A DNA stretch of 64,000 nucleotides from an uncultured bacterium (GTDB lineage: Bacteria; Krumholzibacteriota; Krumholzibacteriia; Krumholzibacteriales; WJIX01). The translations under genes were made by a program, and so were the position numbers. Location of the stretch: assembly GCA_964554125.1 (NCBI GenBank), contig CAZKNG010000003.1, forward strand, positions 2,971-66,970, in the 5' to 3' direction. The notes under the pieces were generated by a model. It saw only the letters and a list, made by a program, of their open reading frames with translations, was not told where the DNA came from and made no database searches. Positions 3,837 to 43,681 of the stretch are shown here, piece after piece (the first letter of the stretch is position 1; every line of letters begins with the position of its first letter).

Positions 3837-4918
3837 TTTATTCTACTCATAAAAAATTCTTCAACATCTTCAATCATTTTAGATTCAGTAAAATTATTTT
3901 TTAACGTATTTAATGCATTCTCTTTGAATTTTAAACGTAAGTCTACACTTTCTATTAGAGTTGATATTTTATCGATAAGGGAGTTAATGTTGCCAAAAGG
4001 ATATAAAAAACCATTTTCACCATCTTTAATAATTTCTCTTACTCCTCCTACATCAGTCGCAACTACAGGATTACCAACTGCAAAATATTCAACAATTGAA
4101 TTCGAAAATCCTTCTAATTTAGAAGTTAAAATTGATATATCATGAAGCGAAGAAATTAACATGGGATTTTCTGTAAACCCGTTGAAAATTACTTTTTCTT
4201 GTAGAGAAAGATTTTCAACCATCTCTTTAAGTTTCCACTTTTCCGTTCCATCACCTGTTATTAAAAGAATCCAATTGGGATATTCTGCCGAAATAGTTTT
4301 AAAAGCTTTTATTAAGTGATTAACATATTTAATTTTATGTAATCTGGTAGTTATTCCAATAATATTTTTATCATCAGAAATATTCAGTCTATTTCTTACT
4401 TCATCCAAAGCCTTTTTTCCAGGAAGAAAAGGTTCCCTCCCATTGTAAATAGTTGTAAATTCATTTTTATTCAGCCAGATATTTCCTTCCAATATTTTAT
4501 CAGAAACATAGTTACAAGGAACAATGCTATGTGAAACCAGGTATTTGTGATTAATTTTAGTTTTAAATCTCCTAAAAAAATCATCTTCTCTGCCTATTCT
4601 TCTTATATTAGGGATTTTACAAATTTTTGCCGCAATCCCTCCGATCCCAATCTCTTTTTCGATGTTAGTAAGGATCAAGTCGATATTATTTTTTTTAACA
4701 AAATAAACTAATTTTAAAATTTTAAGTATATTATAATCAGGACCCAGATTTTCTTTAATAATATTCACTTTATTATGAGAATTTTTGGCAAGGGCTGAAT
4801 TTTTATGAGTTAATATCCAGACGTCATGCCCATTCTTTTGAAGGCCAATGGCGGTCCTCTTCATCCAGGTTACAACACCGCGCCAACTTTTTTTTGAAGA
4901 AATATAAAGTATTCTCAT
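3833..4918 (-). CDS. Glycosyltransferase family 4 (GT-B, RfaG/WbuB-like)
   Basis: 361 aa. It has the GT4 C-terminal motif …GFSNSIVEYFAVGNPVVATDVGGVREIIKDGENGFL…. It overlaps its neighbours by 4 bp and 1 bp, consistent with an operon. Confidence 0.75.
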   Translation of the reverse strand: MRILYISSKKSWRGVVTWMKRTAIGLQKNGHDVWILTHKNSALAKNSHNKVNIIKENLGPDYNILKILKLVYFVKKNNIDLILTNIEKEIGIGGIAAKICKIPNIRRIGREDDFFRRFKTKINHKYLVSHSIVPCNYVSDKILEGNIWLNKNEFTTIYNGREPFLPGKKALDEVRNRLNISDDKNIIGITTRLHKIKYVNHLIKAFKTISAEYPNWILLITGDGTEKWKLKEMVENLSLQEKVIFNGFTENPMLISSLHDISILTSKLEGFSNSIVEYFAVGNPVVATDVGGVREIIKDGENGFLYPFGNINSLIDKISTLIESVDLRLKFKENALNTLKNNFTESKMIEDVEEFFMSRIK

Positions 4919-5751
4919 TATCTTTTCATAAATTCATTTTTAGAATATTCTTTAATTATTTTATTTTCAATTTCTATATATTTGTCTTCATAATCTGCTT
5001 CCCTTGTATTTAGATATTCCCAGTATTTAACATAAATTAAGAAATGGTAAAAACCACGCATTAAACTAATTAATAGTCCGTATATTCCGTCTTTATATCC
5101 CTTATATTTAAAATATCTTCTTCTAAATTCGTAAAACCCGCTTTTCATCATTTTAGGAATTGTGAATTTTTTATCTTTTTTAATCATTTTTTCTACTTCA
5201 AAATCAGTGTATCTATTTAACTTATCTATAAAATCTTTGCTGCCAGTATAACCAAAATGATACATTGAATTTTGCAAACCTTTTAAATAATACTTCCTGC
5301 CCTTCGTTTTAAAGTTCCCATGAACTTTATCTGAAGGTGTAACAAATCCTTTCTTAAAAAATCTCGGATGATAATCAGGATACCAACCTGTATGTTTAAT
5401 CCATTTACCAAAAATATGATTCTTATTTGGAATTTCTATAACATCATACTTATCCTCTTCTACTATTTTTCTTAGAGTGTTTGAAAGAGATAAAGGAATT
5501 CTTTCATCAGCATCCACAATAAGAATCCATTCACCATTGCATTTTTCTATACCGTATTTTCTAGCCGGTTCAACAAATCCTACTCGATTAAAAGAATAAA
5601 TATTCTCTGTATAATCTTCGCATATTTCAACAGTTTTATCATCACTGTTCATATCAATAACCACAATTTCATCAGCCCATTTTAGAGTTTGCAGACATGC
5701 TTTAATATTTCTTTCCTCATTAAAAGTATGTACTAGAGCTGTAATATTCAT
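4918..5751 (-). CDS. Glycosyltransferase family 2
   Basis: 277 aa. The N-terminal GT-A fold motifs are ALVHTFNEERNI…, VVIDMNSDDKT and IVDADERIP (a DxD-like motif). Confidence 0.75.
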   Translation of the reverse strand: MNITALVHTFNEERNIKACLQTLKWADEIVVIDMNSDDKTVEICEDYTENIYSFNRVGFVEPARKYGIEKCNGEWILIVDADERIPLSLSNTLRKIVEEDKYDVIEIPNKNHIFGKWIKHTGWYPDYHPRFFKKGFVTPSDKVHGNFKTKGRKYYLKGLQNSMYHFGYTGSKDFIDKLNRYTDFEVEKMIKKDKKFTIPKMMKSGFYEFRRRYFKYKGYKDGIYGLLISLMRGFYHFLIYVKYWEYLNTREADYEDKYIEIENKIIKEYSKNEFMKR

Positions 5752-11178: not shown

Positions 11179-12447
11179 CTATCTTATTGCCGCTTTAAGC
11201 GCAAACTGCACCCGGAAGCAGTCATATTCATCAGAGTCTGTTGTGGTAGTTACTCCTCCGCTGTTTTCTCTTGTAGTCCACTTTGTCTTCAGATATGAAA
11301 ATTCTAACATACCTGTAATATTATCTGTTATCCCGTACATCGCGTTCGCGAAGATAAGGGAGTTCATATCGCGGAATCCTGTGCTCCCGCCTTTCGGAAG
11401 ATCATATTCATCTTCGTCCGGGTCGTCGAAAGAATAACCTGTGTTAAAAGTCAACCTGGAAGAGGGCTTCACTGAAAGCATCCCCCATCCACCCATTGTG
11501 GGAAGCGGCTCATATATATCGTCTGTGTTCTGAAGGGCGCCTCCGAAATAAGTCTTAAGCGCCTGACCTATAAAGTATTCACCCTTGATCGATATATGTT
11601 TGTTGAATCTGAGCTCTAAATCACCGTTAAATGACCATGAATCGATACTTTCTTCCGTGACTTTTTCCGGTGAAGCTGTCTCATCTGTTCTATTATATTT
11701 CTCCTGTCCGTAATGACCGGATACTCCGAGTGAGAGCTTTCCTTCTTCAGAGAATTCAGATGCGATTCCAACCCTTCCCTGTACTGCGGGCATTGCTGCG
11801 TCGGCGCCGTTGTCAACACCGTCTCCAGCGTTTACATTTATAGTGTCGTTGTAACCAATGCTGAAATCTCCGCCCATATTTCTGGTAACGGCAAGATCCA
11901 GCAAAACCTCAGCTCCTCCGTTAATATCTGTCCATGTAGAGAATCTCACCTGGGGTCTTCTGTATCCGATATTCCCTTCGCCCCATGCCACACTGTAATT
12001 TACTGTCTTCGGCACCAGAGGGGAGATGACATCCCAGGTCTGACCCGCGAGAACAGACCATTTCTTACCTGCCATCTTGAAATAGGCGTGTCTCAGCATA
12101 GGGGTTGCCTTATTCTCAGCGCTTGCCCCGCCTCCGTAGAAATCGAATTCCAGGGTAGCCTGTGTTTTTACACATTCTTCATTCCAGAAAAAGTCGAAAC
12201 CCAACCTGCTCTCCCTGGTACTGAAATAGAGGGCGTTGTCAGCTTCATCATATCTCGGAACGTAGATATGAAAATTACCCGGATAGATCCGGGCGTTGTC
12301 ATAGGCAATGTCGGATTTGAAGTAGCCGTGGAATTTGAATTGATATTTTCCGCATTTCTTAGCGCACTCCCCGCCGCTGACATCCAGCGCAGGAAGGGAC
12401 AAAGCGAAAACGGCTATAAGTAAATAGAGTGTTATTTTATTCCTCAT
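11179..12447 (-). CDS. Outer-membrane beta-barrel protein / putative porin
   Basis: 422 aa. It has a signal peptide (MRNKITLYLLIAVFALSLPALDVSG), alternating amphipathic beta-strand patterns, and an AGGAG RBS. Confidence 0.55.
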   Translation of the reverse strand: MRNKITLYLLIAVFALSLPALDVSGGECAKKCGKYQFKFHGYFKSDIAYDNARIYPGNFHIYVPRYDEADNALYFSTRESRLGFDFFWNEECVKTQATLEFDFYGGGASAENKATPMLRHAYFKMAGKKWSVLAGQTWDVISPLVPKTVNYSVAWGEGNIGYRRPQVRFSTWTDINGGAEVLLDLAVTRNMGGDFSIGYNDTINVNAGDGVDNGADAAMPAVQGRVGIASEFSEEGKLSLGVSGHYGQEKYNRTDETASPEKVTEESIDSWSFNGDLELRFNKHISIKGEYFIGQALKTYFGGALQNTDDIYEPLPTMGGWGMLSVKPSSRLTFNTGYSFDDPDEDEYDLPKGGSTGFRDMNSLIFANAMYGITDNITGMLEFSYLKTKWTTRENSGGVTTTTDSDEYDCFRVQFALKAAIR

Positions 12448-16772: not shown

Positions 16773-17789
16773 CTATTCTATAAACTCGTTGCCCACTTTA
16801 CGCGCGCGCTCAGGTTTATCTAAATTAATATCCAGCGCTAACCCTATTTCAACAAGCAGGTTCCATCCAGCGGTCAGAAATATGTATGGATTCATATTTC
16901 CTCCTTCCGGAACACGTATAGTTGTAAACGGGGTATCTCTATCCGCGATCGCGATGACTGTCAGTCCAACACCTTCAACCAGGACTTCCTGAAATTTCTC
17001 TATTTCCTCCTCGATTGGATCTATTACAAACACAATATCATTACTTTCCATGACCTCTTCGATACCGTGTACCGCGTAGGTGCCTTCGAGAAAGTCAGAT
17101 TTCTTCCTTGTGATTTCATTCGTTTTCAGAGTAAGTTCTTCAGCTACACCGTCATCATAGCCCGCGAAATAAATTGTCGGCGCCTTTGCGGCTTTTTCAA
17201 CGATACCGGGTTTTATACGCATGGTAAGTGTTTTTTTGATCTTGCCTGCCAGCTCTTTAAGATCGACTGAATTACTATTACCGGCAATATGCCATAATAT
17301 CGATTCGTAAAAAAGAGCCTGTTCGACTACACTCTTTGTAGCCGCTACCGCCTGCTCCCATCCGCAATTTAAAACAAAGGTTTCATTACATGCCTCTTCG
17401 AGAAGTGTTCCCTCGTTGGCGGTAAGAGCAAAACGGAATTCATTGCCTTCATCTGCCAGTTTCTTGGCCAGTAAAACAACCTCCTTGGTCCTCCCCGAGT
17501 TTGAAGCGCAGAAAACCGCGAATTCAGACAGATCGTACTGCGCAGACTGACGTGATCCGTCTGTTGATATTGAAAGATCGAGTCCCATTTTCAACCCCTT
17601 GCGTATCGCATTTTTTGCGGGGTAGATTCTACTTGAACCTTCACCTGTAAGCATAAGCCTGCCAGCATTTTGTATCTTGCAGGCAACCTCTTTCGTCTGG
17701 TCCGGATCAAAGTTCTCAACAACGCTTACAGTATCGATCATCTCCCTTGCTAAAGCGTATTTTGAATACTTCTCCTCTTCTATATTCAT
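16773..17789 (-). CDS. Double SIS-domain sugar-phosphate isomerase/aminotransferase-like protein (GlmS isomerase-domain-like, AgaS/NagB-II-like)
   Basis: 338 aa with two SIS repeats (…LMLTGEGSS…; …FVIDPIEEE…) and no glutaminase domain. Confidence 0.55.
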   Translation of the reverse strand: MNIEEEKYSKYALAREMIDTVSVVENFDPDQTKEVACKIQNAGRLMLTGEGSSRIYPAKNAIRKGLKMGLDLSISTDGSRQSAQYDLSEFAVFCASNSGRTKEVVLLAKKLADEGNEFRFALTANEGTLLEEACNETFVLNCGWEQAVAATKSVVEQALFYESILWHIAGNSNSVDLKELAGKIKKTLTMRIKPGIVEKAAKAPTIYFAGYDDGVAEELTLKTNEITRKKSDFLEGTYAVHGIEEVMESNDIVFVIDPIEEEIEKFQEVLVEGVGLTVIAIADRDTPFTTIRVPEGGNMNPYIFLTAGWNLLVEIGLALDINLDKPERARKVGNEFIE

Positions 17790-17920: not shown

Positions 17921-20131
17921 TTAAGAATCCCTCTTACTGATTTCACCTGCCAGCTTCTTAAAATCCTCTGTTTCCCCGCGCACCTGTTTTACAAAACTGT
18001 TGTCTTCGATCGTTCCAATCGCGGCGTTCATCTCCTCAATATTTCTGTATGTATTCTGTCTGAACTTATTATCGAAATCCTTCTTTCTGGATCTATAGAC
18101 GGCCCGGTTAACAAATTCCTGAATCTCAACTGCTCTTTCAAGAGCTCCCAGCCAATCCTCTTTAGTAAACTCCGTATCGGAACCATTTATATCCCGAAGG
18201 GTAGCAAAGGCGTGTTTCTGTTTTTCAAACGGATATTCCTGCCATAGCTGGTCATATCTTTCGTGAATATCCTTCCAGGAAGAAAGTTTCCCCTTAACAA
18301 TATCTCTACGCAGACAGTCAACATCTCCTTCAGCGATAAGCTGTCCTCCTATATTAAGCCATCTCTCTTCGCGCTCACACCCTAGTTTTTCAACCATCGA
18401 TGAAAATCTTAATGAAGGATCAGATGCCATATATTCTATCAGATTCTTTACAGCGTAATAATGAAGCATATCAGAATAGGCCCTGTATGCCTCATAAACT
18501 TTAAAGATGATGACCTTTCTTTTTGACTTTTCCATATTTTCGCCCAGAATTTCCAGTTTATCTATCTTTCCTTTAGAGCCGGTGAGAAGCTCACGCCCCG
18601 CTGCAGCCAGCTTATCTTCGTCTTCATTACCGTCTAATTCACCTCTCTCGCGCAAGCTCGCTTTCGCTGCCGCAATCTCGAGCAGTCTACGGGCCTTTAT
18701 TATTTCTTCCGCTGTATCCGGAGCTAAAGGGTCGAATTCAATATTCTGTATCTTCCTCTCGCGTTTGTCTCTATTCCTGAACTTGGAGGAATTTCTTGCC
18801 AGGGCATACATATTATACAACCACCAGTATGCCGGCAGGACTTCAAGCCTGCCCTTTACGTCATTATTATTAACCAGTGAAAAGGGGAGAGGAATATCGA
18901 GTTCAGCCGGATAATCGGCTTTAGCAAGAAGAACAAAGGAAGCAAAACGGCACGAATGTTTAACGCTGACACATAATCCCGGCCAGAATCCTCTGCCCGC
19001 CTGAATTTCATTGTCGTTGGCGCGGCTGTTGTGATTTGAACCTATCGTAGCGCCCGCGGCCATATTACTCTGGCCCATAACCACAGAGGCTATCAGAAAC
19101 GAATTGTTGTGATGCTGTTCGTGAGCGGGAAATATCAGATTGTTGAGGACTTCACAACATGAAATGGTAGAATTATCCCCCAGGAAGGAGTTTATAAGCC
19201 TCGCTCCGTATTTCAGATTTGAATTATCACCAAGAATAAACCTCACTGCCTTGCAGCCGTAAAAGACATGACAACCGAAACCGATAATACCATTTACGAG
19301 CTCTACACCCTCTCCGATCTGTGTCTTTTCTGTTTCCGATGAATTAATAGTAAGATTCTTTAATTTGTTGACCCCTTTAATATAACAATGGGAACCGATC
19401 TTTACATCTTTTAGAATACGTGAATTCTTGATAACACACTGACTTCCGATAGTACCGTAATATCCTCTGCTTGAATCAAAACTCTCCTGAGTTATCTTCT
19501 TCAATTTTTCCTGCAGCGCCGTGTCATCTCTGTATTTTGCCCATATATAGGCGTCAGCTGTTATTATACCTTCGAAGGGCAACACGCTGCGGCATCCCGC
19601 TTCATTCATCAGGTCGAGCCATATTCGTACTTCCTCCTGCTCACCCTCCTTTATAATTCCATTTCCGAATTTGGCGTGATTTGTAGTATGCATTTCATTG
19701 ATATTTGACAAAATAGTTCTGTCACCCACAATGAAATGTGATAAATAAAATACATCGTGGACCGCTACATCATCTCCTATATCACACGCAATTATCAAAC
19801 TGTTTGTAATTCCGGCAGGCACCTTCAGATCATGGTGGTCAAGGATCACGTTTCTCACGTTTCCTATTCGAACACGGCCGTAGAAATCATTATTCTTTAT
19901 CTGTCCGGGATCAAATTTGTCGGTTACGAATATTTCATCCCAGTTATCGGAAGTATTGTTATTCTTCACAAGCCTGCGCACTTCATCGGAGCTGAGGTTA
20001 CGCCACCTTTTTTCAGGCCATAAAGCCTGGCTATAACGATGGTAGTACTCATCTTTTCCCTTCGGAAGGTACTCCTCCGGAATAAAATTTCTACCTATAA
20101 CACCTGCCGGTAAAATTCTGACACTATCCAA
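17921..20131 (-). CDS. Large left-handed beta-helix (hexapeptide-repeat) protein, DUF4954-like
   Basis: 736 aa. The central region has repeated [LIV]G.. hexapeptide periodicity (…IGEGVELVNGIIGFGCHVFYGCKAVRFILGDNSNL…GARLINSFLGDNSTIS…) and an acidic coiled C-terminus. The family assignment is from memory of DUF4954, not a search. Confidence 0.45.
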   Translation of the reverse strand: MDSVRILPAGVIGRNFIPEEYLPKGKDEYYHRYSQALWPEKRWRNLSSDEVRRLVKNNNTSDNWDEIFVTDKFDPGQIKNNDFYGRVRIGNVRNVILDHHDLKVPAGITNSLIIACDIGDDVAVHDVFYLSHFIVGDRTILSNINEMHTTNHAKFGNGIIKEGEQEEVRIWLDLMNEAGCRSVLPFEGIITADAYIWAKYRDDTALQEKLKKITQESFDSSRGYYGTIGSQCVIKNSRILKDVKIGSHCYIKGVNKLKNLTINSSETEKTQIGEGVELVNGIIGFGCHVFYGCKAVRFILGDNSNLKYGARLINSFLGDNSTISCCEVLNNLIFPAHEQHHNNSFLIASVVMGQSNMAAGATIGSNHNSRANDNEIQAGRGFWPGLCVSVKHSCRFASFVLLAKADYPAELDIPLPFSLVNNNDVKGRLEVLPAYWWLYNMYALARNSSKFRNRDKRERKIQNIEFDPLAPDTAEEIIKARRLLEIAAAKASLRERGELDGNEDEDKLAAAGRELLTGSKGKIDKLEILGENMEKSKRKVIIFKVYEAYRAYSDMLHYYAVKNLIEYMASDPSLRFSSMVEKLGCEREERWLNIGGQLIAEGDVDCLRRDIVKGKLSSWKDIHERYDQLWQEYPFEKQKHAFATLRDINGSDTEFTKEDWLGALERAVEIQEFVNRAVYRSRKKDFDNKFRQNTYRNIEEMNAAIGTIEDNSFVKQVRGETEDFKKLAGEISKRDS

Positions 20132-20379: not shown

Positions 20380-20408
20380 GTTGACAAAATGGGTGATTTC
20401 CGTTATAT
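20380..20408 (+). promoter_or_regulatory. Sigma-70-type promoter of the lipoprotein/FadL-like operon
   Basis: TTGACA-17 nt-TATATT, ending 22 nt upstream of the ATG. It is followed by a GGAG RBS. Confidence 0.5.
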
Positions 20409-20429
20409 TAAATCAATGGAGACAAGAAG

Positions 20430-20975
20430 ATGAAAAAGATAAATCCCTATTTCCTCAGCTTACTTTCCGCTCTCGCGCTTATCCTTTTTACATCCGGATG
20501 CTATACAATACTGAACCATCCCCGTGTCGAAACTGAACCACAGAATGACTATGAATATTATTCCTGTTCCGACTGCCATGGTCAAAACGCCTATTTTGGT
20601 CACTACTATCCTCCCCTCGCATATCCCGGCATGTGGCATGATTACTACATTCAACCATGGTGGTACGGTGAAATAGACAATACCGGGGAACAGGATATTC
20701 CGGTAAGAAGTATAATTGGAGATAGAGAAATAAGAATCCAGGATAATGATTTTATTACAAACCCCGGCAATATACGCGGCGGGTCTCCAACGGCCAGGGA
20801 AGTCAGAAAGACCGACACAGAGAAAAGTAACACAAACAGCGGTTCAACAAAGGATAATAGAACAAAAAGAATAAAGAGGTCTGAAAGAAAAGCACGGGAA
20901 AGCTCGAAAACAAGAGATAATAACGATTCCAGAGATAACAACAAAGACAGATCAGGTGATGATAATCGCCGATAA
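20430..20975 (+). CDS. Lipoprotein with an aromatic/His-rich Cys-containing motif and a highly charged low-complexity tail
   Basis: 181 aa. It has a signal peptide with a lipobox (…LILFTSGC). It is preceded by a good sigma-70 promoter (TTGACA-17-TATATT at 20380-20408) and a GGAG RBS. Confidence 0.6.
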   Translation: MKKINPYFLSLLSALALILFTSGCYTILNHPRVETEPQNDYEYYSCSDCHGQNAYFGHYYPPLAYPGMWHDYYIQPWWYGEIDNTGEQDIPVRSIIGDREIRIQDNDFITNPGNIRGGSPTAREVRKTDTEKSNTNSGSTKDNRTKRIKRSERKARESSKTRDNNDSRDNNKDRSGDDNRR

Positions 20976-21020
20976 GTTTTATCAGATGTCCATCCACTTC
21001 TTTTCGCTGCGAGGTGAATA

Positions 21021-22370
21021 TTGAATAAAGGAAAAATAGTTATTTTTACTGTAATAATGCTCTTTGCTGCCATTTCTGTTCGTTCACAGATAATAGAGAC
21101 TATTTCTGCTCGTTCACAGATAATAGGAAGTCTGCAGGCTGACAGGCTGGGCTTTCTCAACACATACCAGTCGGGCGGAAGGGCGGCATCTCTTGGCGGA
21201 GCTTATACTGCTGTAAGTAACGACGCGTTCGCTCTGATCTACAACCCCGCGGGTCTGACTCAGATAAAAAAGAAGGAATTATCATTCGGTATACATTACA
21301 GCACGGAAGATCTATCCACTAATTACGACGGACATAATTTTCTGCTTCCTAATTCTTCCGCCGGGATAAGTCACCTCACAACAGTATATCCCTTCCCCAC
21401 TTACCGGGGTAGCCTGGTTCTCGGGTTCGGTGTTTTCAAAGTGGCGGATTCAGATCTGGAATATTTCAAGAGTTCTTACCGGGCTGATCTGAACGGCACT
21501 GTCACGAATACACTCAATCAGACGGGAAATATATATCAGTACCGTTTCGGCGCGGGAGTCGATATTTCACCGAGGATAGCAGCAGGCGCTAATCTCGTGG
21601 TTTGGGACGGATCTTCGGGATTCGTGGAAGATATTTCCTTCGAGCATACAACCTTGGATTCATTCTATGTTTTCAGTGATGACGTTTCTGTCAATCTCGA
21701 CGGGCTGAGTATGGAGATCGGCCTGCTGTTCAGATTGTCCAAGGCACTCAGAGCCGGACTAAAGATAAGCACTCCTGCATGGTTATCGTACGACGGGAAC
21801 GCCGTTGAATACTATGACGGAAGTTATTCAGACGGCGCCGGGTGGACAACAGATCCTTATTACTATTATATCGAAGACGAGTATACACTGCCCATGAAAC
21901 TTAGAGGAGGAGTGTCATACCGATTCAGGAACCTTCTTCTATGCGCGGACGCCGAATATTGTGACTATACTCAGACTGAATATAACGGTAAAAAACTATA
22001 CGTTAACCGTGCTGGTGCTGTCCTGGAGAAAACACTTGATTTTAGTTTTGGAGCAGAGTTTACTCTCCCCTTCTACCCGGCTAAACTCCGGGCGGGTTAT
22101 TCCTATCACCCCTCCAGATTTATTGGAATGGAAGAATTGGCCTATATAGAAGAACCAACACCCGAAACAATTAACATTAAATCTAACTGGTCTCTTTTCG
22201 ACGTTATAAAGAAGCGCCAGCTCTATTCCTTCGGCGTAGGAGGGCTTATAGACAAGGTTCTAAAGCTCGACCTGACTGTTTCAGTAGGAAGTTTCGAAAG
22301 GGAGACAGAATATCTGACAGAAACTGTAGAATTTACTAAAACCTCCCTTTCAACATCTTATCGATTCTAA
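21021..22370 (+). CDS. FadL/TodX/OmpP1-like outer-membrane transport beta-barrel
   Basis: 449 aa. It has a signal peptide, an N-terminal hatch motif (…GGAYTAVSNDAFALIYNPAGL… with NPA), and a C-terminal …SYRF aromatic terminus. It starts 45 bp after the lipoprotein gene, consistent with an operon. Confidence 0.6.
   Translation: MNKGKIVIFTVIMLFAAISVRSQIIETISARSQIIGSLQADRLGFLNTYQSGGRAASLGGAYTAVSNDAFALIYNPAGLTQIKKKELSFGIHYSTEDLSTNYDGHNFLLPNSSAGISHLTTVYPFPTYRGSLVLGFGVFKVADSDLEYFKSSYRADLNGTVTNTLNQTGNIYQYRFGAGVDISPRIAAGANLVVWDGSSGFVEDISFEHTTLDSFYVFSDDVSVNLDGLSMEIGLLFRLSKALRAGLKISTPAWLSYDGNAVEYYDGSYSDGAGWTTDPYYYYIEDEYTLPMKLRGGVSYRFRNLLLCADAEYCDYTQTEYNGKKLYVNRAGAVLEKTLDFSFGAEFTLPFYPAKLRAGYSYHPSRFIGMEELAYIEEPTPETINIKSNWSLFDVIKKRQLYSFGVGGLIDKVLKLDLTVSVGSFERETEYLTETVEFTKTSLSTSYRF
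21072..21125 (+). repeat. Imperfect 30-bp tandem duplication inside the 5' end of the FadL-like gene
   Basis: ATTTCTGTTCGTTCACAGATAATA and ATTTCTGCTCGTTCACAGATAATA lie 30 bp apart. They encode ISVRSQII / ISARSQII at the signal-peptide/mature junction. Confidence 0.7.
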
Positions 22371-30055: not shown

Positions 30056-31372
30056 TTATTTTATAAAGTCCTCCAGAACATCTTTAAGTTCAGGTCTGCC
30101 TATTTCGTCCAGATCGTATGACACTCTCACCGACTGCTGCGGGATATCAATTATTCGTCCCAGGTCTATCGGCGTACCTATCACCACGGTGTCACAGTCA
30201 ACCTTGGAAATAGTTTTTTCCAGATCTTTTATCTGTTCTTCACTGTAACCCATAGCGGGAAGCAGAACACCAATTTCAGGGTAGAGCTCGAATGTTTCAG
30301 CCATACGGCCTGTCGTATAGGGACGCGGGTCTACAAGATCCGATGCTCCGTATTTAAGAGCTGCCATGACACCCGCTCCGTACTTCATCCCGCCGTGAGT
30401 CAGGGTCGGTCCATCTTCCACACAAAGCACTTTCTTACCATTTATAGCTGCCGGATCATCAACTGTAAGCGGAGAAGCCGCGTCAATAACAACGGCGTCC
30501 GGGTTGTAAAAGTTTATATTCTCTCTTACAATTTCCACACCTTCAAGATCAGAGGTGTCGATCTTATTTATAATAATAACATCGGCCATCAAGAGATTGG
30601 TAAATCCCGGATAATAACCAATTTCATCACCCGGCCTGTGAGGATCGGCAACAACTATGTTGAGGTCTGTCTTATAAAAAGGTATGTCGTTATTGCCGCC
30701 GTCCCACAGTATTATATCCGCTTCTTTCTCTGCTTCGCGCAGAATGGCTTCATAATCAACGCCGGAATAGATAATTACACCGTTGACAATGTGAGGTTCA
30801 TACTCTTCCATCTCCTCTATTGTGCAATTGTGTTTCTCAAGATCTTCCAGCGAACCGTATCTCTGAACACTCTGTTTGGCAAGGTCACCATAGGGCATGG
30901 GATGTCTTATAGCTACGACCTTCTTGCCGGCATCGGTTAAAATCCGGGCAATCTTTCTCGTGGTCTGGCTCTTTCCACATCCGGTACGTACGGCACATAC
31001 TGATATTACAGGTTTGCTGCTCTTTATCATAGTCGGTTCCGCGCCGGCTAAAGTAAAGTCAGCGCCGAGTGAATTTACATACTGCGCCTTTTCCATTACA
31101 TACTGGTTTGAAAGATCACTGTATGAAAAGAATACTTCCTCGACCTTCCTTTCCCTGATGAGCTCACCCAGCTTCTCTTCGGGATAGATCGATATACCCT
31201 CCGGATAAAGCTCTCCCGCGAGTTCGGAAGGATATTTTCTATCGTCAATATCCGGAATCTGCGTGGCGGTAAAAGCCACTACTTCATACGATTTATTACC
31301 TCTGAAAAGGGTGTTGAAATTATGAAAATCCCTTCCAGCGGCGCCCATTATCAAAACTTTCTTTCTCTCCAT
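30056..31372 (-). CDS. P-loop NTPase of the COG2403 / cyclic-2,3-diphosphoglycerate-synthetase-like family, function unknown
   Basis: 438 aa with a Walker A motif (AVRTGCGKSQ). The N-terminus is MGAAGRDFHNFN. The assignment to COG2403 is from memory and not verified. Confidence 0.4.
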   Translation of the reverse strand: MERKKVLIMGAAGRDFHNFNTLFRGNKSYEVVAFTATQIPDIDDRKYPSELAGELYPEGISIYPEEKLGELIRERKVEEVFFSYSDLSNQYVMEKAQYVNSLGADFTLAGAEPTMIKSSKPVISVCAVRTGCGKSQTTRKIARILTDAGKKVVAIRHPMPYGDLAKQSVQRYGSLEDLEKHNCTIEEMEEYEPHIVNGVIIYSGVDYEAILREAEKEADIILWDGGNNDIPFYKTDLNIVVADPHRPGDEIGYYPGFTNLLMADVIIINKIDTSDLEGVEIVRENINFYNPDAVVIDAASPLTVDDPAAINGKKVLCVEDGPTLTHGGMKYGAGVMAALKYGASDLVDPRPYTTGRMAETFELYPEIGVLLPAMGYSEEQIKDLEKTISKVDCDTVVIGTPIDLGRIIDIPQQSVRVSYDLDEIGRPELKDVLEDFIK

Positions 31373-31441: not shown

Positions 31442-31942
31442 CTACTTCTTCAATTTATTTATCAGCTTGCTGGTTGAATAACCTTCAACCATTTTTACCC
31501 TCTTAACTTCTCCGCCATTACGGAGCACAAAATCCGCTCCCGCTATCTCCTCCACGGAATACTCATCCCCTTTAACAAGTATATCCGGCTTTAATTTCCT
31601 GATTACTTCAACTGGGGTATCCTCCTCAAAAACAGTTACATAATCAACGCAAACGAGGTTAAGGAGGATAAAAGCTCTGTCATATTCCTTCGTAAGAGGT
31701 CTTCGGTGCCCTTTCAGACGTCTTAGTGAACGGTCACTGTTAATACCTACAACAAGACAGTCACCGAAACTACGCGCTTTAACAAGCAGTTCAACGTGCC
31801 CTCGGTGAAGAATATCAAAACAGCCGTTTGTGAAAACCACTCGGCCGTTCAGCTTATCTTTTCTGAAACCGGAAAGTTCAACCGGGTTTATAATTCTCTC
31901 TGTATACTCATTCATAATATTAAGAAGTAAAGGAAGAAACAA
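31442..31942 (-). CDS. rfaE2: D-glycero-beta-D-manno-heptose-1-phosphate adenylyltransferase (RfaE domain II / HldE C-terminal half, stand-alone)
   Basis: 166 aa cytidylyltransferase fold with VVFTNGCFDILHRGHVELL. Confidence 0.8.
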   Translation of the reverse strand: MFLPLLLNIMNEYTERIINPVELSGFRKDKLNGRVVFTNGCFDILHRGHVELLVKARSFGDCLVVGINSDRSLRRLKGHRRPLTKEYDRAFILLNLVCVDYVTVFEEDTPVEVIRKLKPDILVKGDEYSVEEIAGADFVLRNGGEVKRVKMVEGYSTSKLINKLKK

Positions 31943-32897
31943 GTTCTTTTAAGTCGACAACAGCAGTGCCGAGCTCACGTACAACCAGACCTGCCGCCGC
32001 GTTGGCCAACTCTATCGCTTCATCAAGTTCTGCTTCGGCCGCGAGTGCCGCGGCCAGAACACTGATAACGGTATCCCCCGCGCCCGTAACGTCGTATACC
32101 CCGCTGGCCATCGTTGGAAAATGACTATGCTTTTGTCCTCTCCTGAACAATGTCATCCCCTCCTGGCCCCTCGTAATAAGTACGGCTTCCGCCTCGAGGT
32201 CATCTAAGAGAGACTCTCCTGTTTCCAGAAGATCCTTCTCGGATTTGATCTTTCTGTTATAGAACGCCCCCGCTTCATTCTTGTTAGGTGTAATAATATA
32301 AGAACCATGGTAGAGAGAAAAATGTTTCTCCTTTGGATCAACAAGCATGGGTATTGAATTAGCCCGGCATAAACGACGGACATTTTTCATCAATTCGCCG
32401 GTTACAACACCCTTCCCGTAATCTGAAATAACCACAGAGCCGACATCTTTCAATAGATCTTCCACAATGTCAATTATCTCATTTAAAACATTTCCGTCTA
32501 TATCCCCTTCAGATTCAAAATCGGCTCTTACAACCTGCTGGTTGTGCGCGATAATCCTGATCTTTTCAGTTGTTACCCTTGACTTATCTCTGGCAAGAAA
32601 ATCGGTTGTAACACCAAGTTTACTTATGAGTCTCTCAAGTTCCTCGCCGGCCGGCCCTTCACATAAAAGACCTACAAGAGAACATTCAGAACCCAGCGAG
32701 ATAAGATTCCACGCAACATTTGCCGCCCCGCCGGGTCTTACATCTGTCTTTTCAACTTTTACCACGGGAACAGGCGCCTCAGGGCTTATTCTATCAACAA
32801 GTCCCCAATAGTACCTGTCAAGCATTACATCTCCGATAACAGCGACAGATGAGCTTCTTATCTTTTCTCCTATCTCCTCTAATCTGTCCTTATTCAA
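31920..32897 (-). CDS. rfaE1: D-glycero-beta-D-manno-heptose-7-phosphate kinase (RfaE domain I / HldE N-terminal half, PfkB family)
   Basis: 325 aa PfkB-type kinase (…VAVIGDVMLDRYYWG…; GAGDT). It overlaps rfaE2 by 23 bp. Confidence 0.8.
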   Translation of the reverse strand: MNKDRLEEIGEKIRSSSVAVIGDVMLDRYYWGLVDRISPEAPVPVVKVEKTDVRPGGAANVAWNLISLGSECSLVGLLCEGPAGEELERLISKLGVTTDFLARDKSRVTTEKIRIIAHNQQVVRADFESEGDIDGNVLNEIIDIVEDLLKDVGSVVISDYGKGVVTGELMKNVRRLCRANSIPMLVDPKEKHFSLYHGSYIITPNKNEAGAFYNRKIKSEKDLLETGESLLDDLEAEAVLITRGQEGMTLFRRGQKHSHFPTMASGVYDVTGAGDTVISVLAAALAAEAELDEAIELANAAAGLVVRELGTAVVDLKELVSSFTS

Positions 32898-33621: not shown

Positions 33622-34539
33622 TTATTTATCGGGTGGTTTTGTTTTCCATCTCTTATGGGCCCAGAAATATTGATCCGGATATTTTATTACGCTCTCTTCG
33701 AGCGCCTTGACGTGAAGAGCGGTTAATCTCTTTATTTCTTCTTCCCTGTCCGCTTCAGGATTCACCTGAATTGGAGGGCAAAATACCGCGTGATGAGTCT
33801 CATCTTCCCCTCTTACAATAAAACAGAAGATTATTGGACAGTTCACGCGACACGCGAATTGGGCGGCACCCGGATATGTCGAAGAAGGTATCCCGAAAAA
33901 ATCCACAAAAATGCCGGCTTTCCTGGCGTCCTGGTCGGAAAGCATCGCGACAACCCTGTTCTTCTTAAGCGAGGTGAAGATACCTCGTATTGAAACACCA
34001 ACCGGTATGGTCCCTATTCCGGCCTTTCTTCTTAGCCGGTTAATGTGGGAATCTACGAATTTGTTCCCTTGCTGTCCAACGAGAAAATCTGTCGGGATTC
34101 CAGTAGCGGCAAAAGCCGCTCCCATAAGCTCCCAGCTTCCTAAATGACCTGTAATCGCGATAACCCCATGACCCTTTTTGAGCGCTTCTTCCATATAATC
34201 CTTACCGGAGAAGGATACAAGCTCCCGCAGGTCATCACCAGACAAGCTCCCGATAGAAGCAAACTCGATCATCGATTTCGCGAAGTTGATATAGGATCTT
34301 CTGCCGGTTCTCAGCCGCTCCCGGCTGCTCATTCTGTCTCCGAAAGCTCTTTTAAGATTATTAAGTGTAACAGACCTTCTTATTCTGAAAATATCGAAAG
34401 CAAGAAAGCCGAGAATTGCGCCGAACCTTACTGAAACCTTAAGTGGCAGAAGTCTGGGCAGAATGGAAAGAATATAAACTCCCATCAGCTCTAAACGGTG
34501 CCGTATTCTCTTCCAGTTATCTATATTTCCCTCCATCAA
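33622..34539 (-). CDS. lpxL: Lipid A biosynthesis lauroyl/myristoyl acyltransferase (LpxL/HtrB family, LPLAT)
   Basis: 305 aa with an N-terminal membrane anchor and the …ITGHLGSWE… (HX4D-like) acyltransferase motif. Confidence 0.7.
   Translation of the reverse strand: MMEGNIDNWKRIRHRLELMGVYILSILPRLLPLKVSVRFGAILGFLAFDIFRIRRSVTLNNLKRAFGDRMSSRERLRTGRRSYINFAKSMIEFASIGSLSGDDLRELVSFSGKDYMEEALKKGHGVIAITGHLGSWELMGAAFAATGIPTDFLVGQQGNKFVDSHINRLRRKAGIGTIPVGVSIRGIFTSLKKNRVVAMLSDQDARKAGIFVDFFGIPSSTYPGAAQFACRVNCPIIFCFIVRGEDETHHAVFCPPIQVNPEADREEEIKRLTALHVKALEESVIKYPDQYFWAHKRWKTKPPDK

Positions 34540-40082: not shown

Positions 40083-43681
<3,599 letters not shown>

What the first reader, a model, noticed from the sequence alone, without database searches (positions are those of the whole stretch)
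20380..22370. Two-gene operon of a lipoprotein (aromatic/His-rich Cys motif plus basic/acidic disordered tail) and a FadL-like outer-membrane channel
FadL/TodX channels import hydrophobic molecules. The partner lipoprotein carries an unusual motif, CSDCHGQNAYFGHYYPPLAYPGMWHDYYIQPWWYGE, with many Tyr, Trp and His that may bind metal or aromatic ligands. It is followed by a ~70-residue Arg/Lys/Asp/Ser-rich tail. The barrel gene has a 30-bp tandem duplication at its 5' end. This could be an uncharacterised substrate-capture and import pair.
Basis: partly seen in the sequence, partly recalled or inferred. Interest (0 to 1): 0.5.

Follow-up and report, generated by a model that had tools for sequence, protein, structure and literature searches.

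The report
Conserved lipoprotein plus BamG-like barrel pair
Two adjacent genes encode an odd outer-membrane lipoprotein and a FadL-fold barrel; the same pair occurs in about 130 distinct versions in several uncultured phyla related to Bacteroidota, and it looks more like the barrel-plus-lipoprotein unit recently found in the Bacteroidota outer-membrane protein assembly machine than like a nutrient importer.

Summary
There is a 181-aa lipoprotein (20430-20975), a 449-aa FadL-fold barrel (21021-22370) and a real in-frame 30-nt duplication (21070-21129).

The pair is not unique to this genome. The window comes from Candidatus Krumholzibacteriota. The same two genes lie next to each other in Krumholzibacteriota, Latescibacterota, Zixibacteria, Eisenbacteria, Calditrichota, KSB1 and LCP-89. 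Starting from the barrel, 72 of 80 loci have the lipoprotein. Starting from the lipoprotein motif, 54 of 55 assessable loci have the barrel.

The lipoproteins share four features:
- an invariant lipidated start, C-Y-T-x-L-x-H-P;
- usually a CXXCH motif, which never occurs without that His;
- a very Tyr/Trp-rich stretch (YY..PWW);
- a basic disordered tail.

No library names the family.

By sequence profile, the barrel is closest to BamG, the FadL-like subunit of the Bacteroidota BAM complex. It has BamG's roughly 10-residue N-terminal extension. PorV is clearly more distant. bamG and bamH are likewise neighbours in other FCB phyla. An RpoE-like sigma factor, an anti-sigma factor and a DegP-like protease often flank the pair; catabolic genes do not.

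Best reading: a BamG/BamH-like module for outer-membrane biogenesis or homeostasis, with a new, possibly haem-binding, lipoprotein partner. BAM membership and haem binding are untested. This is a new variant of a known kind.

The parts
20381..20409 (+). Sigma-70-type promoter-like site, TTGACA-17 nt-TATATT, about 20 nt upstream of the lipoprotein start codon
   Evidence: 11 of 12 matches, the best site in the region. The same dyad (TTGACA, 15-18 nt, TAT) occurs upstream of about 50 of 177 lipoprotein genes, against 8-9 in reverse-complement and shuffled controls.
20430..20975 (+). Lipoprotein gene (181 aa); member of an unnamed family
   Evidence: ORF. No Pfam or NCBIfam hit. Homologues (276 clusters at 50% identity, E<=1e-3). 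Sampled members are all called 'hypothetical protein'.
20430..20498 (+). Signal peptide with lipobox (MKKINPYFLSLLSALALILFTSG, before Cys24)
   Evidence: Read from the sequence. A Cys after a hydrophobic stretch with a small residue at -1 is invariant in 74 aligned family members. No dedicated lipoprotein predictor was run.
20499..20522 (+). Invariant N-terminal anchor of the mature lipoprotein, C-Y-T-I-L-N-H-P (residues 24-31); proposed docking peptide for the barrel
   Evidence: C, Y and T are present in 75/75 lipoproteins, His7 in 55/75 and Pro8 in 63/75. C, Y, T, H and P are invariant in all 51 CXXCH-bearing members. Docking is inferred by analogy with the conserved lipidated N-terminus of BamH bound by BamG (PMC12611786, PMC12578637).
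20565..20579 (+). C-S-D-C-H (residues 46-50): a CXXCH motif, candidate covalent haem c attachment site or metal site
   Evidence: Present in 51/75 lipoproteins found through the barrel. His7 is present in 51/51 with CXXCH and in 4/24 without (Fisher p = 1.3e-14, not corrected for phylogeny). The only recurrent weak Pfam hits with a known function are haem-c families (the commonest weak hit, DUF3785, has no known function). AlphaFold2 puts a short helix at 46-51.
20547..20672 (+). Tyr/Trp/His-rich core (residues 40-81) with the near-invariant YY..PWW motif
   Evidence: 10 Y, 3 W, 1 F and 3 H in 42 residues. YY, P and WW are at least 90% conserved in 51 members. Aromatic content of the first 100 residues reaches 34% in relatives.
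20763..20972 (+). Disordered basic tail (residues 112-181), rich in K, R, D, S, N and T
   Evidence: Composition and pI 10.9. Sequence is not conserved but the character is: low complexity, 9-50% K/R, and in most members read a basic C-terminus. AlphaFold2 pLDDT is below 50.
21021..22370 (+). FadL-fold outer-membrane barrel gene (449 aa), BamG-like branch
21070..21129 (+). In-frame tandem duplication of 30 nt (AISVRSQIIE / TISARSQIIG). It duplicates the signal-peptidase site (VRS|Q and ARS|Q) and the first residues of the mature N-tail
   Evidence: Unique among 62 aligned barrels. Present in independent assemblies. Which site is cleaved is inferred, not tested.
21087..21275 (+). Mature N-terminal tail and hatch (residues 23-85), including the conserved GxR...GGAY...NPAG hatch motif
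   Evidence: The hatch (residues 51-85) is the most conserved part of the barrel and the N-tail (33-50) the least. The distance from the N-terminus to NPA is 43 residues from Q33, against 44-46 in BamG and 33 in E. coli FadL.
21243..21251 (+). N75-P76-A77, the NPA motif of the FadL-superfamily hatch
   Evidence: Invariant in 62 homologues. Also present in BamG sequences.
21390..21410 (+). Family signature P-F-P-T-Y-R-G (residues 124-130), between two predicted strands
   Evidence: Invariant or nearly invariant. The genome scan used it as its search pattern and recovered 210 relatives. It is not conserved in the aligned BamG sequences.

Best explanation
The two genes encode a dedicated outer-membrane complex that is conserved across several FCB-superphylum candidate phyla.

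The barrel is a FadL-fold protein of the BamG-like branch. It most likely acts as a membrane platform rather than as a channel for hydrophobic nutrients.

The lipoprotein most likely docks on the barrel through its invariant lipidated N-terminus (C-Y-T-x-L-x-H-P), in the way BamH docks on BamG. It contributes three further parts:
- a small cofactor site, formed by His7 and CXXCH (probably a covalently bound, bis-His haem c, otherwise a metal site);
- an extremely Tyr/Trp-rich segment;
- a long basic disordered tail.

The module serves outer-membrane biogenesis or homeostasis. It is either an accessory unit of the BAM machine or a unit working alongside it, and it is linked to an RpoE-type envelope-stress system.

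Shown here: the fold, the family relations, near-obligate pairing in both directions, the conserved motifs and the gene neighbourhood.

Inferred: physical docking, association with BAM, haem binding, and the side of the membrane the lipoprotein faces.

The 30-nt duplication is a recent strain-specific event. If the first signal-peptidase site is used, it lengthens the barrel's N-terminal tail by 10 residues.
For: Fold and family:
- AlphaFold2 pLDDT is 92.3.
- Three of the four best Foldseek hits are the three solved BamG chains; all three have target-normalised TM-score 0.70-0.71, against about 0.60 for FadL and about 0.66 for TodX.
- NCBIfam BamG is the best model for the window barrel (69.4 bits, E 2.9e-19) and for 5 of 6 diverse relatives (42-84 bits). 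Pfam Toluene_X scores only 20.8 bits.
- The family profile hits BamG of B. thetaiotaomicron (3e-12) and P. gingivalis (1.4e-11) first among PDB sequences. Those alignments run from the signal-peptide cleavage site onward.

N-terminal tail:
- The distance from the mature Q to NPA is 43 residues, against 44-46 in BamG and 33 in FadL.
- This matches the roughly 10-residue extension named as the feature that separates BamG from transporting FadL channels (PMC12578637).

Pairing:
- 72 of 80 barrel-anchored loci from at least 7 phylum-level groups have the lipoprotein upstream on the same strand. Six of the other 8 lack enough upstream sequence to judge.
- Of the loci found with a DNA motif of the lipoprotein alone, 54 of 55 genuine assessable ones have the barrel downstream.

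Precedent:
- bamG and bamH are adjacent genes in Ignavibacterium, Salinibacter, Fibrobacter, Gemmatimonas, Caldithrix and Chitinophaga, and so are the BamG2/BamH2 pairs (Supplementary Table 1 of PMC12611786).
- BamH has a highly conserved lipidated N-terminus wedged into BamG (PMC12578637).
- Here the first 8 mature residues are the most conserved part of an otherwise fast-evolving lipoprotein.

Context:
- An ECF sigma factor (RpoE/SigW-like) lies in 35 of 80 loci, a zf-HC2 anti-sigma factor in 28 and a DegP/DegS-like protease in 22. They occur in two different arrangements in different phyla.
- BamD lies nearby in L008.
- In Krumholzibacteriota the position next to rnc-fabF-acpP-fabG-fabD-fabH-plsX is conserved.
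- LPS and lipid A genes are present elsewhere in the window.
- A sigma-70-type promoter is conserved upstream.

Cofactor:
- CXXCH and His7 co-occur perfectly.
- Weak matches to haem-c families.
Against: - The barrel scores far below the curated NCBIfam BamG cutoff (69 against 250 bits).
- Its N-tail has the BamG length but is the least conserved region across phyla. The BamG N-tail is reported as highly conserved.
- It ends in a plain ...SYRF and shows no obvious C-terminal tail of the kind reported for BamG (not compared by alignment).
- The lipoprotein has no detectable similarity to BamH or to anything else. It is much smaller, is predicted to be disordered on its own (pLDDT 44.6), and lacks acidic residues directly after the Cys, which mark surface lipoproteins in Bacteroidota.
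- Caldithrix is listed with two BamG homologues but one BamH. These phyla may therefore have a separate canonical BamGH, with this pair being a paralogous unit of different function. I could not search whole genomes to settle this.
- No BamA gene was found next to the pair.
- CXXCH is missing in 24 of 75 lipoproteins, so the cofactor cannot be essential to the core function.
- No complex model could be computed.
Confidence: 0.42

Rival explanations
1. Substrate capture and import. The barrel is a working FadL/TodX-type channel for a hydrophobic compound. The aromatic-rich lipoprotein binds or hands over the ligand, in the manner of the AupA (FadL-like) and AupB (lipoprotein) alkane-uptake pair.
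For: - The fold is FadL, with the hatch and an invariant NPA motif.
- The family profile hits TodX at 2e-10.
- Precomputed Pfam Toluene_X labels are attached to many homologues.
- The N-tail sequence is not conserved across phyla.
- A Tyr/Trp-rich surface could bind aromatic or hydrophobic ligands (inference).
Against: - No catabolic, beta-oxidation or aromatic-degradation genes lie in the neighbourhood in the loci held (the 80 clustered and those).
- Nearly every scanned genome gave a single locus with housekeeping synteny (one bin gave two), unlike patchy transporter genes.
- The barrel has the 10-residue N-terminal extension that in BamG fills the lateral exit.
- BamG-model similarity is much stronger than Toluene_X similarity (69 against 21 bits).
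- The lipoprotein is predicted to be disordered and has a long basic tail with no obvious role in ligand capture.
Confidence: 0.15
2. Outer-membrane redox module. The lipoprotein is a mono-haem c-type cytochrome, with His7 and the CXXCH His as axial ligands. It is held at the membrane by the barrel and carries electrons to or from extracellular or periplasmic partners, possibly helped by Tyr/Trp hopping. This would be a split, FadL-based analogue of Cyc2 or of porin-cytochrome complexes, or a peroxidase-like protective unit.
For: - CXXCH is invariant in 51 members from several phyla and is always accompanied by His7.
- The chance frequency of CXXCH in shuffles is 0.09%.
- Whenever CXXC is present it is followed by His.
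- Weak hits are to Haem_bd, Cytochrom_C, Cytochrome_CBB3 and FixO, and to cytochrome c555 and OmcS (not significant).
- Some Krumholzibacteria genomes encode other c-type cytochromes, so the maturation machinery exists in the phylum (PMC7914226).
Against: - About a third of family members found through the barrel lack CXXCH yet keep the anchor, the aromatic segment, the tail and the barrel.
- No barrel residue co-varies with CXXCH.
- No other cytochrome or redox gene recurs in the neighbourhood.
- The FadL fold has a plugged lumen and is not known to conduct electrons.
- No cytochrome c maturation genes are in the window.
- The type species of the phylum is described as fermentative.
- Haem binding is untested.
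Confidence: 0.13
3. Envelope-stress sensor. The barrel-lipoprotein complex reports on outer-membrane integrity, outer-membrane protein assembly or redox state, as RcsF-OmpA or NlpE do. The long basic tail, or release of the lipoprotein, relays the signal to the adjacent anti-sigma factor and DegS/DegP-like protease, which switches on the RpoE-like ECF sigma factor.
For: - An ECF sigma factor, a zf-HC2 anti-sigma factor and an HtrA-family protease recur next to the pair in two different gene orders and in different phyla. In Zixibacteria-type loci the order is small OMP, lipoprotein, barrel, then (in some loci after a DUF401 gene) ECF sigma factor, anti-sigma factor and HtrA, all on one strand.
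- The lipoprotein has a Cys pair and a basic disordered segment, as the known sensor lipoproteins do (recalled knowledge of RcsF and NlpE).
Against: - The linkage is absent in the window itself and in its closest relatives.
- Adjacency would equally fit co-regulation of a biogenesis factor.
- The promoter conserved upstream is sigma-70-type, and no clear ECF-type promoter was found.
- There is no homology to RcsF or NlpE.
Confidence: 0.18
4. Type IX secretion accessory. The barrel is a PorV/PorQ-type shuttle, and the lipoprotein is a cargo or attachment partner.
For: NCBIfam PorV_fam is the second-best model for the barrels (28-67 bits) and the best for one of them. PorV is also a FadL-superfamily protein of the FCB group.
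Against: - All PorV, PorQ and PorV2 scores are below their cutoffs, and for the window barrel they cover only the N-terminal hatch.
- PorV is absent from the top 50 Foldseek hits.
- No T9SS genes are in the window or among the recurrent neighbours.
- The lipoprotein has no T9SS C-terminal domain.
Confidence: 0.03

Closest known systems
BamG-BamH unit of the Bacteroidota/FCB beta-barrel assembly machinery (Liu et al. 2025, PMC12611786; Silale et al. 2025, PMC12578637)
   Same: - The barrel is a FadL-fold protein whose N-terminal tail is about 10 residues longer than FadL's.
- BamG is the best sequence-profile match, and three of the four best Foldseek hits are BamG chains.
- The partner is a lipoprotein whose lipidated N-terminus is its most conserved part.
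- The two genes are adjacent, as bamG and bamH are in Ignavibacterium, Salinibacter, Fibrobacter, Gemmatimonas and Caldithrix.
- The distribution is in the FCB superphylum.
- Mature BamG starts with Gln in the two aligned sequences, as this barrel does.
   Different: - The barrel scores far below the curated BamG threshold.
- The N-tail sequence is not conserved across phyla, and no obvious C-terminal tail is present.
- The lipoprotein is not homologous to BamH. It is about 160 mature residues, mostly disordered, carries CXXCH, a Tyr/Trp-rich segment and a basic tail, and has no folded canopy domain.
- It lacks the acidic export signal directly after the Cys.
- Association with BamA is untested.
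FadL / TodX / TbuX hydrophobic-compound channels
   Different: - This barrel has the N-terminal extension.
- Its Toluene_X profile score is weak.
- It has a dedicated lipoprotein partner.
- It has no catabolic gene context.
- It carries its own signature, PxPTYRG.
AupA-AupB alkane uptake pair of Marinobacter (recalled from the literature, not read here)
   Same: An operon of a FadL-like outer-membrane protein and a lipoprotein.
   Different: No homology of the lipoproteins. AupA similarity is negligible (E 0.007 for one relative). The ecology and gene context differ.
PorV / PorQ of the type IX secretion system
   Same: FadL-superfamily barrels of the FCB group. The N-terminal hatch motif is similar.
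RcsF-OmpA/OmpC and NlpE stress-sensing lipoproteins of Enterobacteria (recalled knowledge)
   Same: An outer-membrane lipoprotein with conserved Cys residues and a basic disordered segment, functionally tied to a barrel and to an envelope-stress pathway.
   Different: No homology. A different barrel type. A different signalling system (ECF sigma factor rather than Rcs or Cpx). The link rests on gene neighbourhood only.
Cyc2 fused cytochrome-porin and porin-cytochrome complexes (recalled knowledge; Cyc2 in Krumholzibacteria is mentioned in PMC7914226)
   Same: A single CXXCH close to the N-terminus, associated with an outer-membrane barrel.
   Different: - Here the CXXCH sits on a separate lipoprotein.
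- The barrel is a plugged FadL fold.
- CXXCH is lost in a third of the family.
- No haem evidence exists.

Membership tests
FadL/OMPP1/TodX superfamily (fold level) | Monomeric beta-barrel of FadL topology with an N-terminal hatch inside the lumen | tested here: met
FadL/OMPP1/TodX superfamily (fold level) | Conserved NPA motif in the hatch | tested here: met
   N75, P76 and A77 are invariant in 62 homologues.
FadL/TodX transporters (Pfam PF03349 Toluene_X) | Score at or above the Pfam gathering threshold | tested here: not met
   20.8 bits against a cutoff of 29.7, and only residues 46-101 match. Some homologues carry a precomputed, mostly faint, PF03349 label.
FadL/TodX transporters | Open lateral exit in the barrel wall used for substrate diffusion; catabolic gene context | tested here: inconclusive
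A strand break at residues 144-145 may be the S3 kink. The gene context is not catabolic.
BamG (NCBIfam NF053685, equivalog) | Score at or above the curated cutoff (250 bits) | tested here: not met
   69.4 bits for the window protein and 42-84 bits for six relatives. It is nevertheless the top-scoring model for the window protein and for five of the six. The model may be tuned to Bacteroidota sequences (its seed was not seen).
BamG | N-terminal tail about 10 residues longer than in transporting FadL channels | tested here: met
   Mature Q to NPA is 43 residues, against 44-46 in BamG (B. thetaiotaomicron, P. gingivalis) and N33 in E. coli FadL. Whether the tail threads through the lateral opening was not testable.
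BamG | The extended N-terminus is highly conserved | tested here: inconclusive
   Conserved within Krumholzibacteriota (QIIGxLxLERLGxL), but the least conserved region across the whole family (entropy 2.88 against 1.45 for the hatch).
BamG | Conserved C-terminal extension relative to FadL, which contacts BamD | not tested
   The protein ends ...TSLSTSYRF, which looks like a plain final strand with no obvious tail. No alignment of C-termini with BamG or FadL was made: the profile alignments stop before the C-terminus.
BamG | Physical association with BamA; essentiality | not testable with these tools
   Needs pull-down and genetics. No bamA gene lies next to the pair in the loci held. BamD lies nearby in L008 only.
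BamG | Binds a lipoprotein (BamH) through that protein's conserved lipidated N-terminus; the genes are often adjacent | tested here: inconclusive
   Adjacency with a lipoprotein that has an invariant N-terminus is met. Binding was not testable, because no multimer prediction was available.
BamH | Sequence or fold homology to BamH (elongated two-domain surface lipoprotein, carbohydrate-binding-like fold) | tested here: not met
   No NCBIfam or Pfam hit at E<=1. No PDB sequence hit to the BamH chains deposited with the BAM complexes. The lipoprotein is 158 mature residues and is predicted to be disordered.
BamH | Acidic lipoprotein export signal within six residues after the Cys | tested here: not met
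   The sequence after the Cys is YTILNHP. The first acidic residues come at +10 to +13. The rule is known only for Bacteroidota.
PorV/PorQ (NCBIfam NF033709 and related models) | Score at or above the cutoff; PorV-like structure | tested here: not met
c-type cytochromes | CXXCH haem attachment motif | tested here: met
   C46-S-D-C49-H50. Invariant in 51 orthologues.
c-type cytochromes | A conserved distal axial ligand | tested here: inconclusive
   His30 (mature His7) co-occurs with CXXCH in 51/51 members, against 4/24 without CXXCH. This is compatible with bis-His ligation but equally with a metal site. Met68 is not conserved.
c-type cytochromes | Covalently bound haem; a maturation system in the genome; membership of a cytochrome family | not testable with these tools
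   Only sub-threshold hits to haem-c Pfam families. No ccm or ccs genes in the 64-kb window. Whole genomes could not be queried.
UPF0164 (Pfam PF03687, Treponema FadL-like proteins) | Score at or above the gathering threshold over the family domain | tested here: inconclusive
   28.9 bits exceeds the cutoff of 21.4, but only residues 7-92 of a 325-position model match, that is the signal peptide and hatch. The label says nothing about function.

The most novel reading that the evidence does not exclude
The pair is a previously unrecognised, widely conserved outer-membrane device of the non-Bacteroidota FCB candidate phyla. A BamG-type barrel holds a minimal mono-haem c lipoprotein at the membrane surface. 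[quoted passage not shown] The Tyr/Trp-rich segment and the polycationic tail couple redox or envelope state to outer-membrane protein assembly, or to the adjacent RpoE-type stress system. That would be a redox-active or sensing subunit on a BAM-like platform, a combination not described in any system.
Probability: 0.15. Interest if true: 0.8.

Novelty: new variant of a known kind. Interest (0 to 1): 0.62.

Why it matters
The BamG-BamH extension of the BAM machine was discovered only in 2025, and only in cultured Bacteroidota. How the rest of the FCB superphylum builds its outer membrane is unknown.

This pair gives a concrete and easily recognised candidate. Its markers are the lipoprotein start C-Y-T-x-L-x-H-P, CXXCH, YY..PWW, and the barrel signature PxPTYRG. 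It occurs in at least seven uncultured phylum-level groups. At least 276 sequence clusters of the lipoprotein exist, and all ten sampled are unannotated.

If it is a BAM accessory, the barrel platform is ancient while its lipoprotein partner was replaced by a completely different and largely disordered protein. If the CXXCH site binds haem, it would be a new minimal lipoprotein cytochrome placed on a FadL-fold barrel.

Either way, current annotations of the barrels as "long-chain fatty acid transport protein" are probably misleading. They could distort metabolic reconstructions of these phyla.

Tried and rejected
- Tandem Repeats Finder on the region found nothing. The duplication was confirmed with the repeat finder and by reading the sequence.
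- A single-sequence PDB search with the barrel found nothing relevant. A profile was needed.
- AlphaFold2 of the lipoprotein alone gave pLDDT 44.6. No fold search was attempted on it.
- Pfam and NCBIfam scans of the lipoprotein and of 74 relatives found no family above threshold.
- A PDB profile search with the lipoprotein family gave only insignificant hits.
- The AFDB50 fold library was not available.
- I looked for barrel columns that track the presence of CXXCH in the partner. None did (maximum frequency difference 0.46).
- I looked for an ECF-type promoter upstream of the lipoprotein genes. Only a sigma-70-type dyad was clearly enriched.
- PorV/T9SS membership was considered and rejected on structure.
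- Covalent tethering to peptidoglycan through a C-terminal Lys, as in Lpp, was considered and dropped. The C-terminal residue is not consistently Lys.
- A literature search for FadL + lipoprotein + CXXCH found no papers. A search for BamG/BamH in these candidate phyla found nothing beyond the three BAM reports (two papers and a preprint).

Full report
**1. What is in the window**

The region holds two same-strand ORFs 45 nt apart. The first, 20430-20975, encodes 181 aa. The second, 21021-22370, starts with TTG, has GAGG just upstream, and encodes 449 aa.

The first product starts with a signal peptide and the lipobox LFTSG|C (Cys24). It continues with CYTILNHP. It then has an acidic, very aromatic core: residues 40-81 hold 10 Tyr, 3 Trp, 1 Phe and 3 His out of 42, and include C46-S-D-C49-H50. 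It ends in a 70-residue tail with 21 K/R, 12 D/E and 30 S/T/N/G, pI 10.9.

The barrel gene carries two in-frame 30-nt units, 21070-21099 and 21100-21129. They are 26/30 identical, and the 25-nt core is 24/25 identical. They encode AISVRSQIIE and TISARSQIIG.

A near-consensus TTGACA-17-TATATT lies at 20381-20409.

**2. Source organism and the duplication**

The lipoprotein is identical to a protein of a Candidatus Krumholzibacteriaceae genome assembled from a metagenome.

The 10-residue insertion is absent from all 61 other aligned barrels, including one 85% identical. It is present in the identical JGI cluster P0007 and in an ENA contig. It is a real, recent, strain-specific duplication.

It duplicates the predicted signal-peptidase site (VRS|Q and ARS|Q). 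Gln at the first mature position is more than 90% conserved in the family. That fits the Gln-first rule known for Bacteroidota signal-peptidase substrates, which I recall from the literature and did not test.

The first site sits at the usual distance from the hydrophobic core. The mature N-tail is therefore probably 10 residues longer than in relatives. This is inference.

**3. The barrel**

Library scans give the following:

| Model | Score | Cutoff | Note |
|---|---|---|---|
| Pfam UPF0164 | 28.9 bits | 21.4 | N-terminal region only |
| Pfam Toluene_X | 20.8 bits | 29.7 | below threshold |
| NCBIfam BamG (NF053685) | 69.4 bits, E 2.9e-19 | 250 | best model, residues 49-348 |
| NCBIfam PorV_fam | 39.8 bits | 90 | second best |

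The same order holds for five of six diverse relatives.

AlphaFold2 with 62 homologues gives pLDDT 92.3.

Foldseek against the PDB ranks as follows, using the TM-score normalised by target length:
- BamG of F. johnsoniae (9n2d_B, E 3e-18, 0.70);
- BamG of B. thetaiotaomicron (9hiv_F, 0.71);
- BamG of P. gingivalis (9hjm_F, 0.71);
- FadL, about 0.60;
- TodX, about 0.66.

A profile of the family hits B. thetaiotaomicron BamG (3e-12) and P. gingivalis BamG (1.4e-11) before TodX (2e-10). The BamG alignments run from the signal-peptide cleavage site.

The distance from the mature Gln to the invariant NPA motif is 43 residues. It is 44 and 46 in the two BamG sequences and 33 in E. coli FadL, whose mutants N33A and P34A are named in the PDB titles. 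This is the roughly 10-residue N-terminal extension that the BAM papers name as the feature separating BamG from transporting FadL channels. In BamG it threads through the lateral opening and touches BamA (PMC12578637, PMC12611786).

Three things count against strict BamG membership:
- the score is far below the curated cutoff;
- the N-tail is the least conserved region across phyla;
- no obvious C-terminal tail is present.

The family has its own signature, P-x-P-T-Y-R-G (residues 124-130).

**4. The lipoprotein family**

A word-indexed search found only 6 relatives, and 19 with a profile. However, reading the ORF upstream of distant barrel homologues showed the same kind of protein each time.

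In a scan of one genome per species with the barrel profile, 80 loci were kept. They come from Krumholzibacteriota, Latescibacterota, Zixibacteria, Eisenbacteria, Calditrichota, KSB1, LCP-89 and unclassified bins.
- 72 loci have an upstream, same-strand ORF with a signal peptide ending in [GAS]-C-Y-T.
- Six of the other eight have less than 600 nt of upstream sequence.
- L023 and L063 are true absences. L006, found earlier, is a third.

The 75 lipoproteins share these features:
- C-Y-T invariant, then [VILMQ]-[LIV]-x-H-P;
- CXXCH in 51 of 75, starting 21-29 residues after the Cys;
- 13-34% aromatic residues in the first 100 residues of most members (less in a few short or Pro-rich variants);
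- a near-invariant YY..PWW motif;
- a low-complexity tail that in most members read ends in basic residues.

In the 51 members with CXXCH, the invariant positions are the lipid Cys, Y, T, H, P, C, C and H.

His7 is present in 51/51 proteins with CXXCH and in 4/24 without (Fisher p = 1.3e-14; the sequences are related, so this overstates independence). Whenever CXXC is present it is CXXCH.

An exhaustive HMMER search with a narrow profile finds 276 clusters at 50% identity. Sampled members are all called "hypothetical protein".

No Pfam, NCBIfam or PDB sequence match is significant. The only recurrent weak hits with a known function are to haem-c families. AlphaFold2 predicts disorder for the isolated protein.

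**5. Reciprocal test of the pairing**

I used a DNA motif built from the lipoprotein alone (TGCTAYACNNTNNTNNNNCAYCCN, a gap of 36-63 nt, then TGYNNNNNNTGYCAY). In the loci already held it hit only the lipoprotein gene.

Of the 80 loci returned:
- 79 are genuine signal-peptide lipoproteins;
- 56 could be assessed, having a complete gene and at least 600 nt downstream;
- 54 of these have a barrel homologue downstream.

The two exceptions are one spurious motif hit (L098) and L159.

The pairing is therefore near-obligate in both directions. 130 distinct pairs are now in hand.

**6. Gene context**

In Krumholzibacteriota the pair always converges on rnc-fabF-acpP-fabG-fabD-fabH-plsX.

Neighbours were clustered across the 80 loci. 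Representatives of the main clusters were then named with Pfam and NCBIfam:
- an RpoE/SigW-like ECF sigma factor in 35 loci;
- a zf-HC2 anti-sigma factor in 28;
- a DegP/DegS-like protease in 22;
- a small DUF5777-like beta-barrel directly upstream, on the same strand, in 30.

Two arrangements recur.
- Krumholzibacteriota type: DUF4837, anti-sigma factor, ECF sigma factor, an unnamed protein of about 245 aa (in some loci) and a TPR protein lie on the opposite strand, transcribed away from the lipoprotein-barrel pair.
- Zixibacteria type: small OMP, lipoprotein and barrel on one strand. In several loci they are followed on the same strand by the ECF sigma factor, anti-sigma factor and HtrA (sometimes after a DUF401 gene); in others those genes lie upstream on the opposite strand.

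BamD lies nearby in one locus. No catabolic genes recur.

The window itself lacks the sigma-factor cluster. Within its 64 kb it does contain LPS-core glycosyltransferases, an LpxL-like acyltransferase and HldE-like genes.

Upstream of 177 lipoprotein genes, the dyad TTGACA, 15-18 nt, TAT occurs about 50 times, against 8-9 in controls. This suggests housekeeping-type transcription.

**7. Interpretation**

The published precedent is close. In Bacteroidota, BamG is an essential FadL-fold subunit bound to BamA. It holds the surface lipoprotein BamH through BamH's highly conserved lipidated N-terminus.

According to Supplementary Table 1 of PMC12611786, bamG and bamH are neighbouring genes in Ignavibacterium, Salinibacter, Fibrobacter, Gemmatimonas, Caldithrix and Chitinophaga. 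The BamG2/BamH2 pairs are neighbours too.

The pair studied here has the same design: a BamG-like barrel with the extended N-tail, an adjacent lipoprotein whose first eight mature residues are its most conserved part, an FCB distribution, and a housekeeping and envelope-stress context.

I therefore rank a BamG/BamH-like outer-membrane biogenesis or homeostasis module first (0.42). The lipoprotein would be a non-homologous replacement for BamH.

The rivals are:
- an envelope-stress sensor feeding the adjacent ECF system (0.18);
- a true hydrophobic-compound import pair (0.15);
- a haem-based redox module (0.13);
- a PorV-like T9SS part (0.03).

The CXXCH-His7 site is most simply read as a bis-His haem c site. 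Its loss in a third of the family, and the absence of any co-varying barrel residue, show it is an accessory feature and not the core of the function.

**8. Limits**

- No multimer prediction, no whole-genome queries and no model coordinates were available.
- Caldithrix is listed with two BamG homologues but only one BamH. These phyla may therefore have a canonical BamGH elsewhere, with this pair being a paralogous unit.
- Docking, BamA association, haem binding and membrane orientation are all inferred.

**9. Verdict**

Its functional guess is probably wrong.

It is a new variant of a recently discovered kind. No library or paper searched names it, and the barrels are currently mislabelled as fatty-acid transporters. 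Interest 0.62.

Noticed in passing
window 40032-41315 (+): A full-length bacterial serpin (Pfam Serpin, E 5e-109, 427 aa) stands alone on the + strand between an aromatic amino-acid lyase gene and obg.
   Followed up: no
window 46245-63985 (-): A large type IV pilus cluster. It holds a PilQ secretin with an AMIN domain, an unnamed 157-aa ORF in the PilP position, PilO, PilN, PilM, a prepilin peptidase, an ABC-2 transporter pair, a PilS-like histidine kinase with a sigma-54 response regulator, and PilC, PilT and PilB.
   Followed up: partly
window 448-5751 (-), 31442-32897 (-), 33622-34539 (-): Genes for LPS core and lipid A synthesis are spread through the window: two GT9 heptosyltransferase-like genes, GT1, GT2, a PfkB kinase with a cytidylyltransferase-like gene (HldE-like, as two genes), and an LpxL-like acyltransferase. 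The window as a whole is rich in envelope-biogenesis genes.
   Followed up: partly
window 17921-20131 (-) and 16773-17789 (-): A 736-aa left-handed beta-helix protein (DUF4954 plus DUF6819) and a SIS-domain protein lie directly upstream of the pair on the other strand. They are conserved there in the closest relatives (L001, L003, L004, L091), where they take the place of the TPR / ECF sigma cluster seen in other Krumholzibacteriota.
   Followed up: partly
window 30056-31372 (-) and 11179-12447 (-): A 438-aa ORF has no Pfam or NCBIfam match. A 422-aa ORF has only a sub-threshold outer-membrane beta-barrel match. Both are uncharacterised.
   Followed up: no
L038, L045, L050, L056, L062, L084, L088 and others (30 of 80 loci), directly upstream of the lipoprotein: A third conserved gene encodes a small beta-barrel protein of about 265 aa. 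It has a signal peptide, ends in ...YFESF, and gives a weak DUF5777 match. In Zixibacteria-type loci it is on the same strand, so the unit there is three genes. No counterpart lies next to the pair in the window.
   Followed up: partly
L077 3375-4902, L081 4428-5983, L087 203-1697, L074 4316-5926: Calditrichota-type loci carry two tandem C-Y-T lipoproteins before one barrel. One is long (about 305-320 mature residues), starts CYTQ in the Calditrichota-type loci (CYTV in L074), has no CXXCH, is extremely Tyr/Trp-rich and has a Ser/Arg-rich tail. The other is shorter and, except in L074, carries CXXCH. Some loci (L069, L078, L080, L085, L089) have only the CYTQ type.
   Followed up: partly
L020 1420-1626, L021 5765-5962, L026 1603-1818, L028 5657-5908: A short variant of the lipoprotein (66-84 mature residues). 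It keeps CYTVL, but polyproline runs (PPPPPPP) replace the CXXCH and the Tyr/Trp-rich part. His7 and Pro8 are replaced by Arg-Gln.
   Followed up: no
L018 and L024 (7353-7838), L005 6351-6851, L007 6371-6856 and other Krumholzibacteriota-type loci: A conserved protein of about 161 aa with no family match, Cys-rich near its N-terminus, lies between the barrel and rnc on the opposite strand in 12 loci. It is absent from the window, where rnc follows the barrel directly.
   Followed up: no
window 21087-21089 and 21117-21119 (Gln23, Gln33); alignment A3: Gln at the first position after the predicted signal-peptidase site is more than 90% conserved in this barrel family, and the two aligned BamG sequences also start with Gln. 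This suggests that N-terminal pyroglutamate formation, known from Bacteroidota, extends to these candidate phyla.
   Followed up: partly
window 20955-20970 (+): A weak terminator-like hairpin (6 pairs, then GATAAGTTTT) overlaps the lipoprotein stop codon. The number of such sites in the region is no higher than in shuffles (2 against 1.8). It might still lower read-through into the barrel gene.
   Followed up: no
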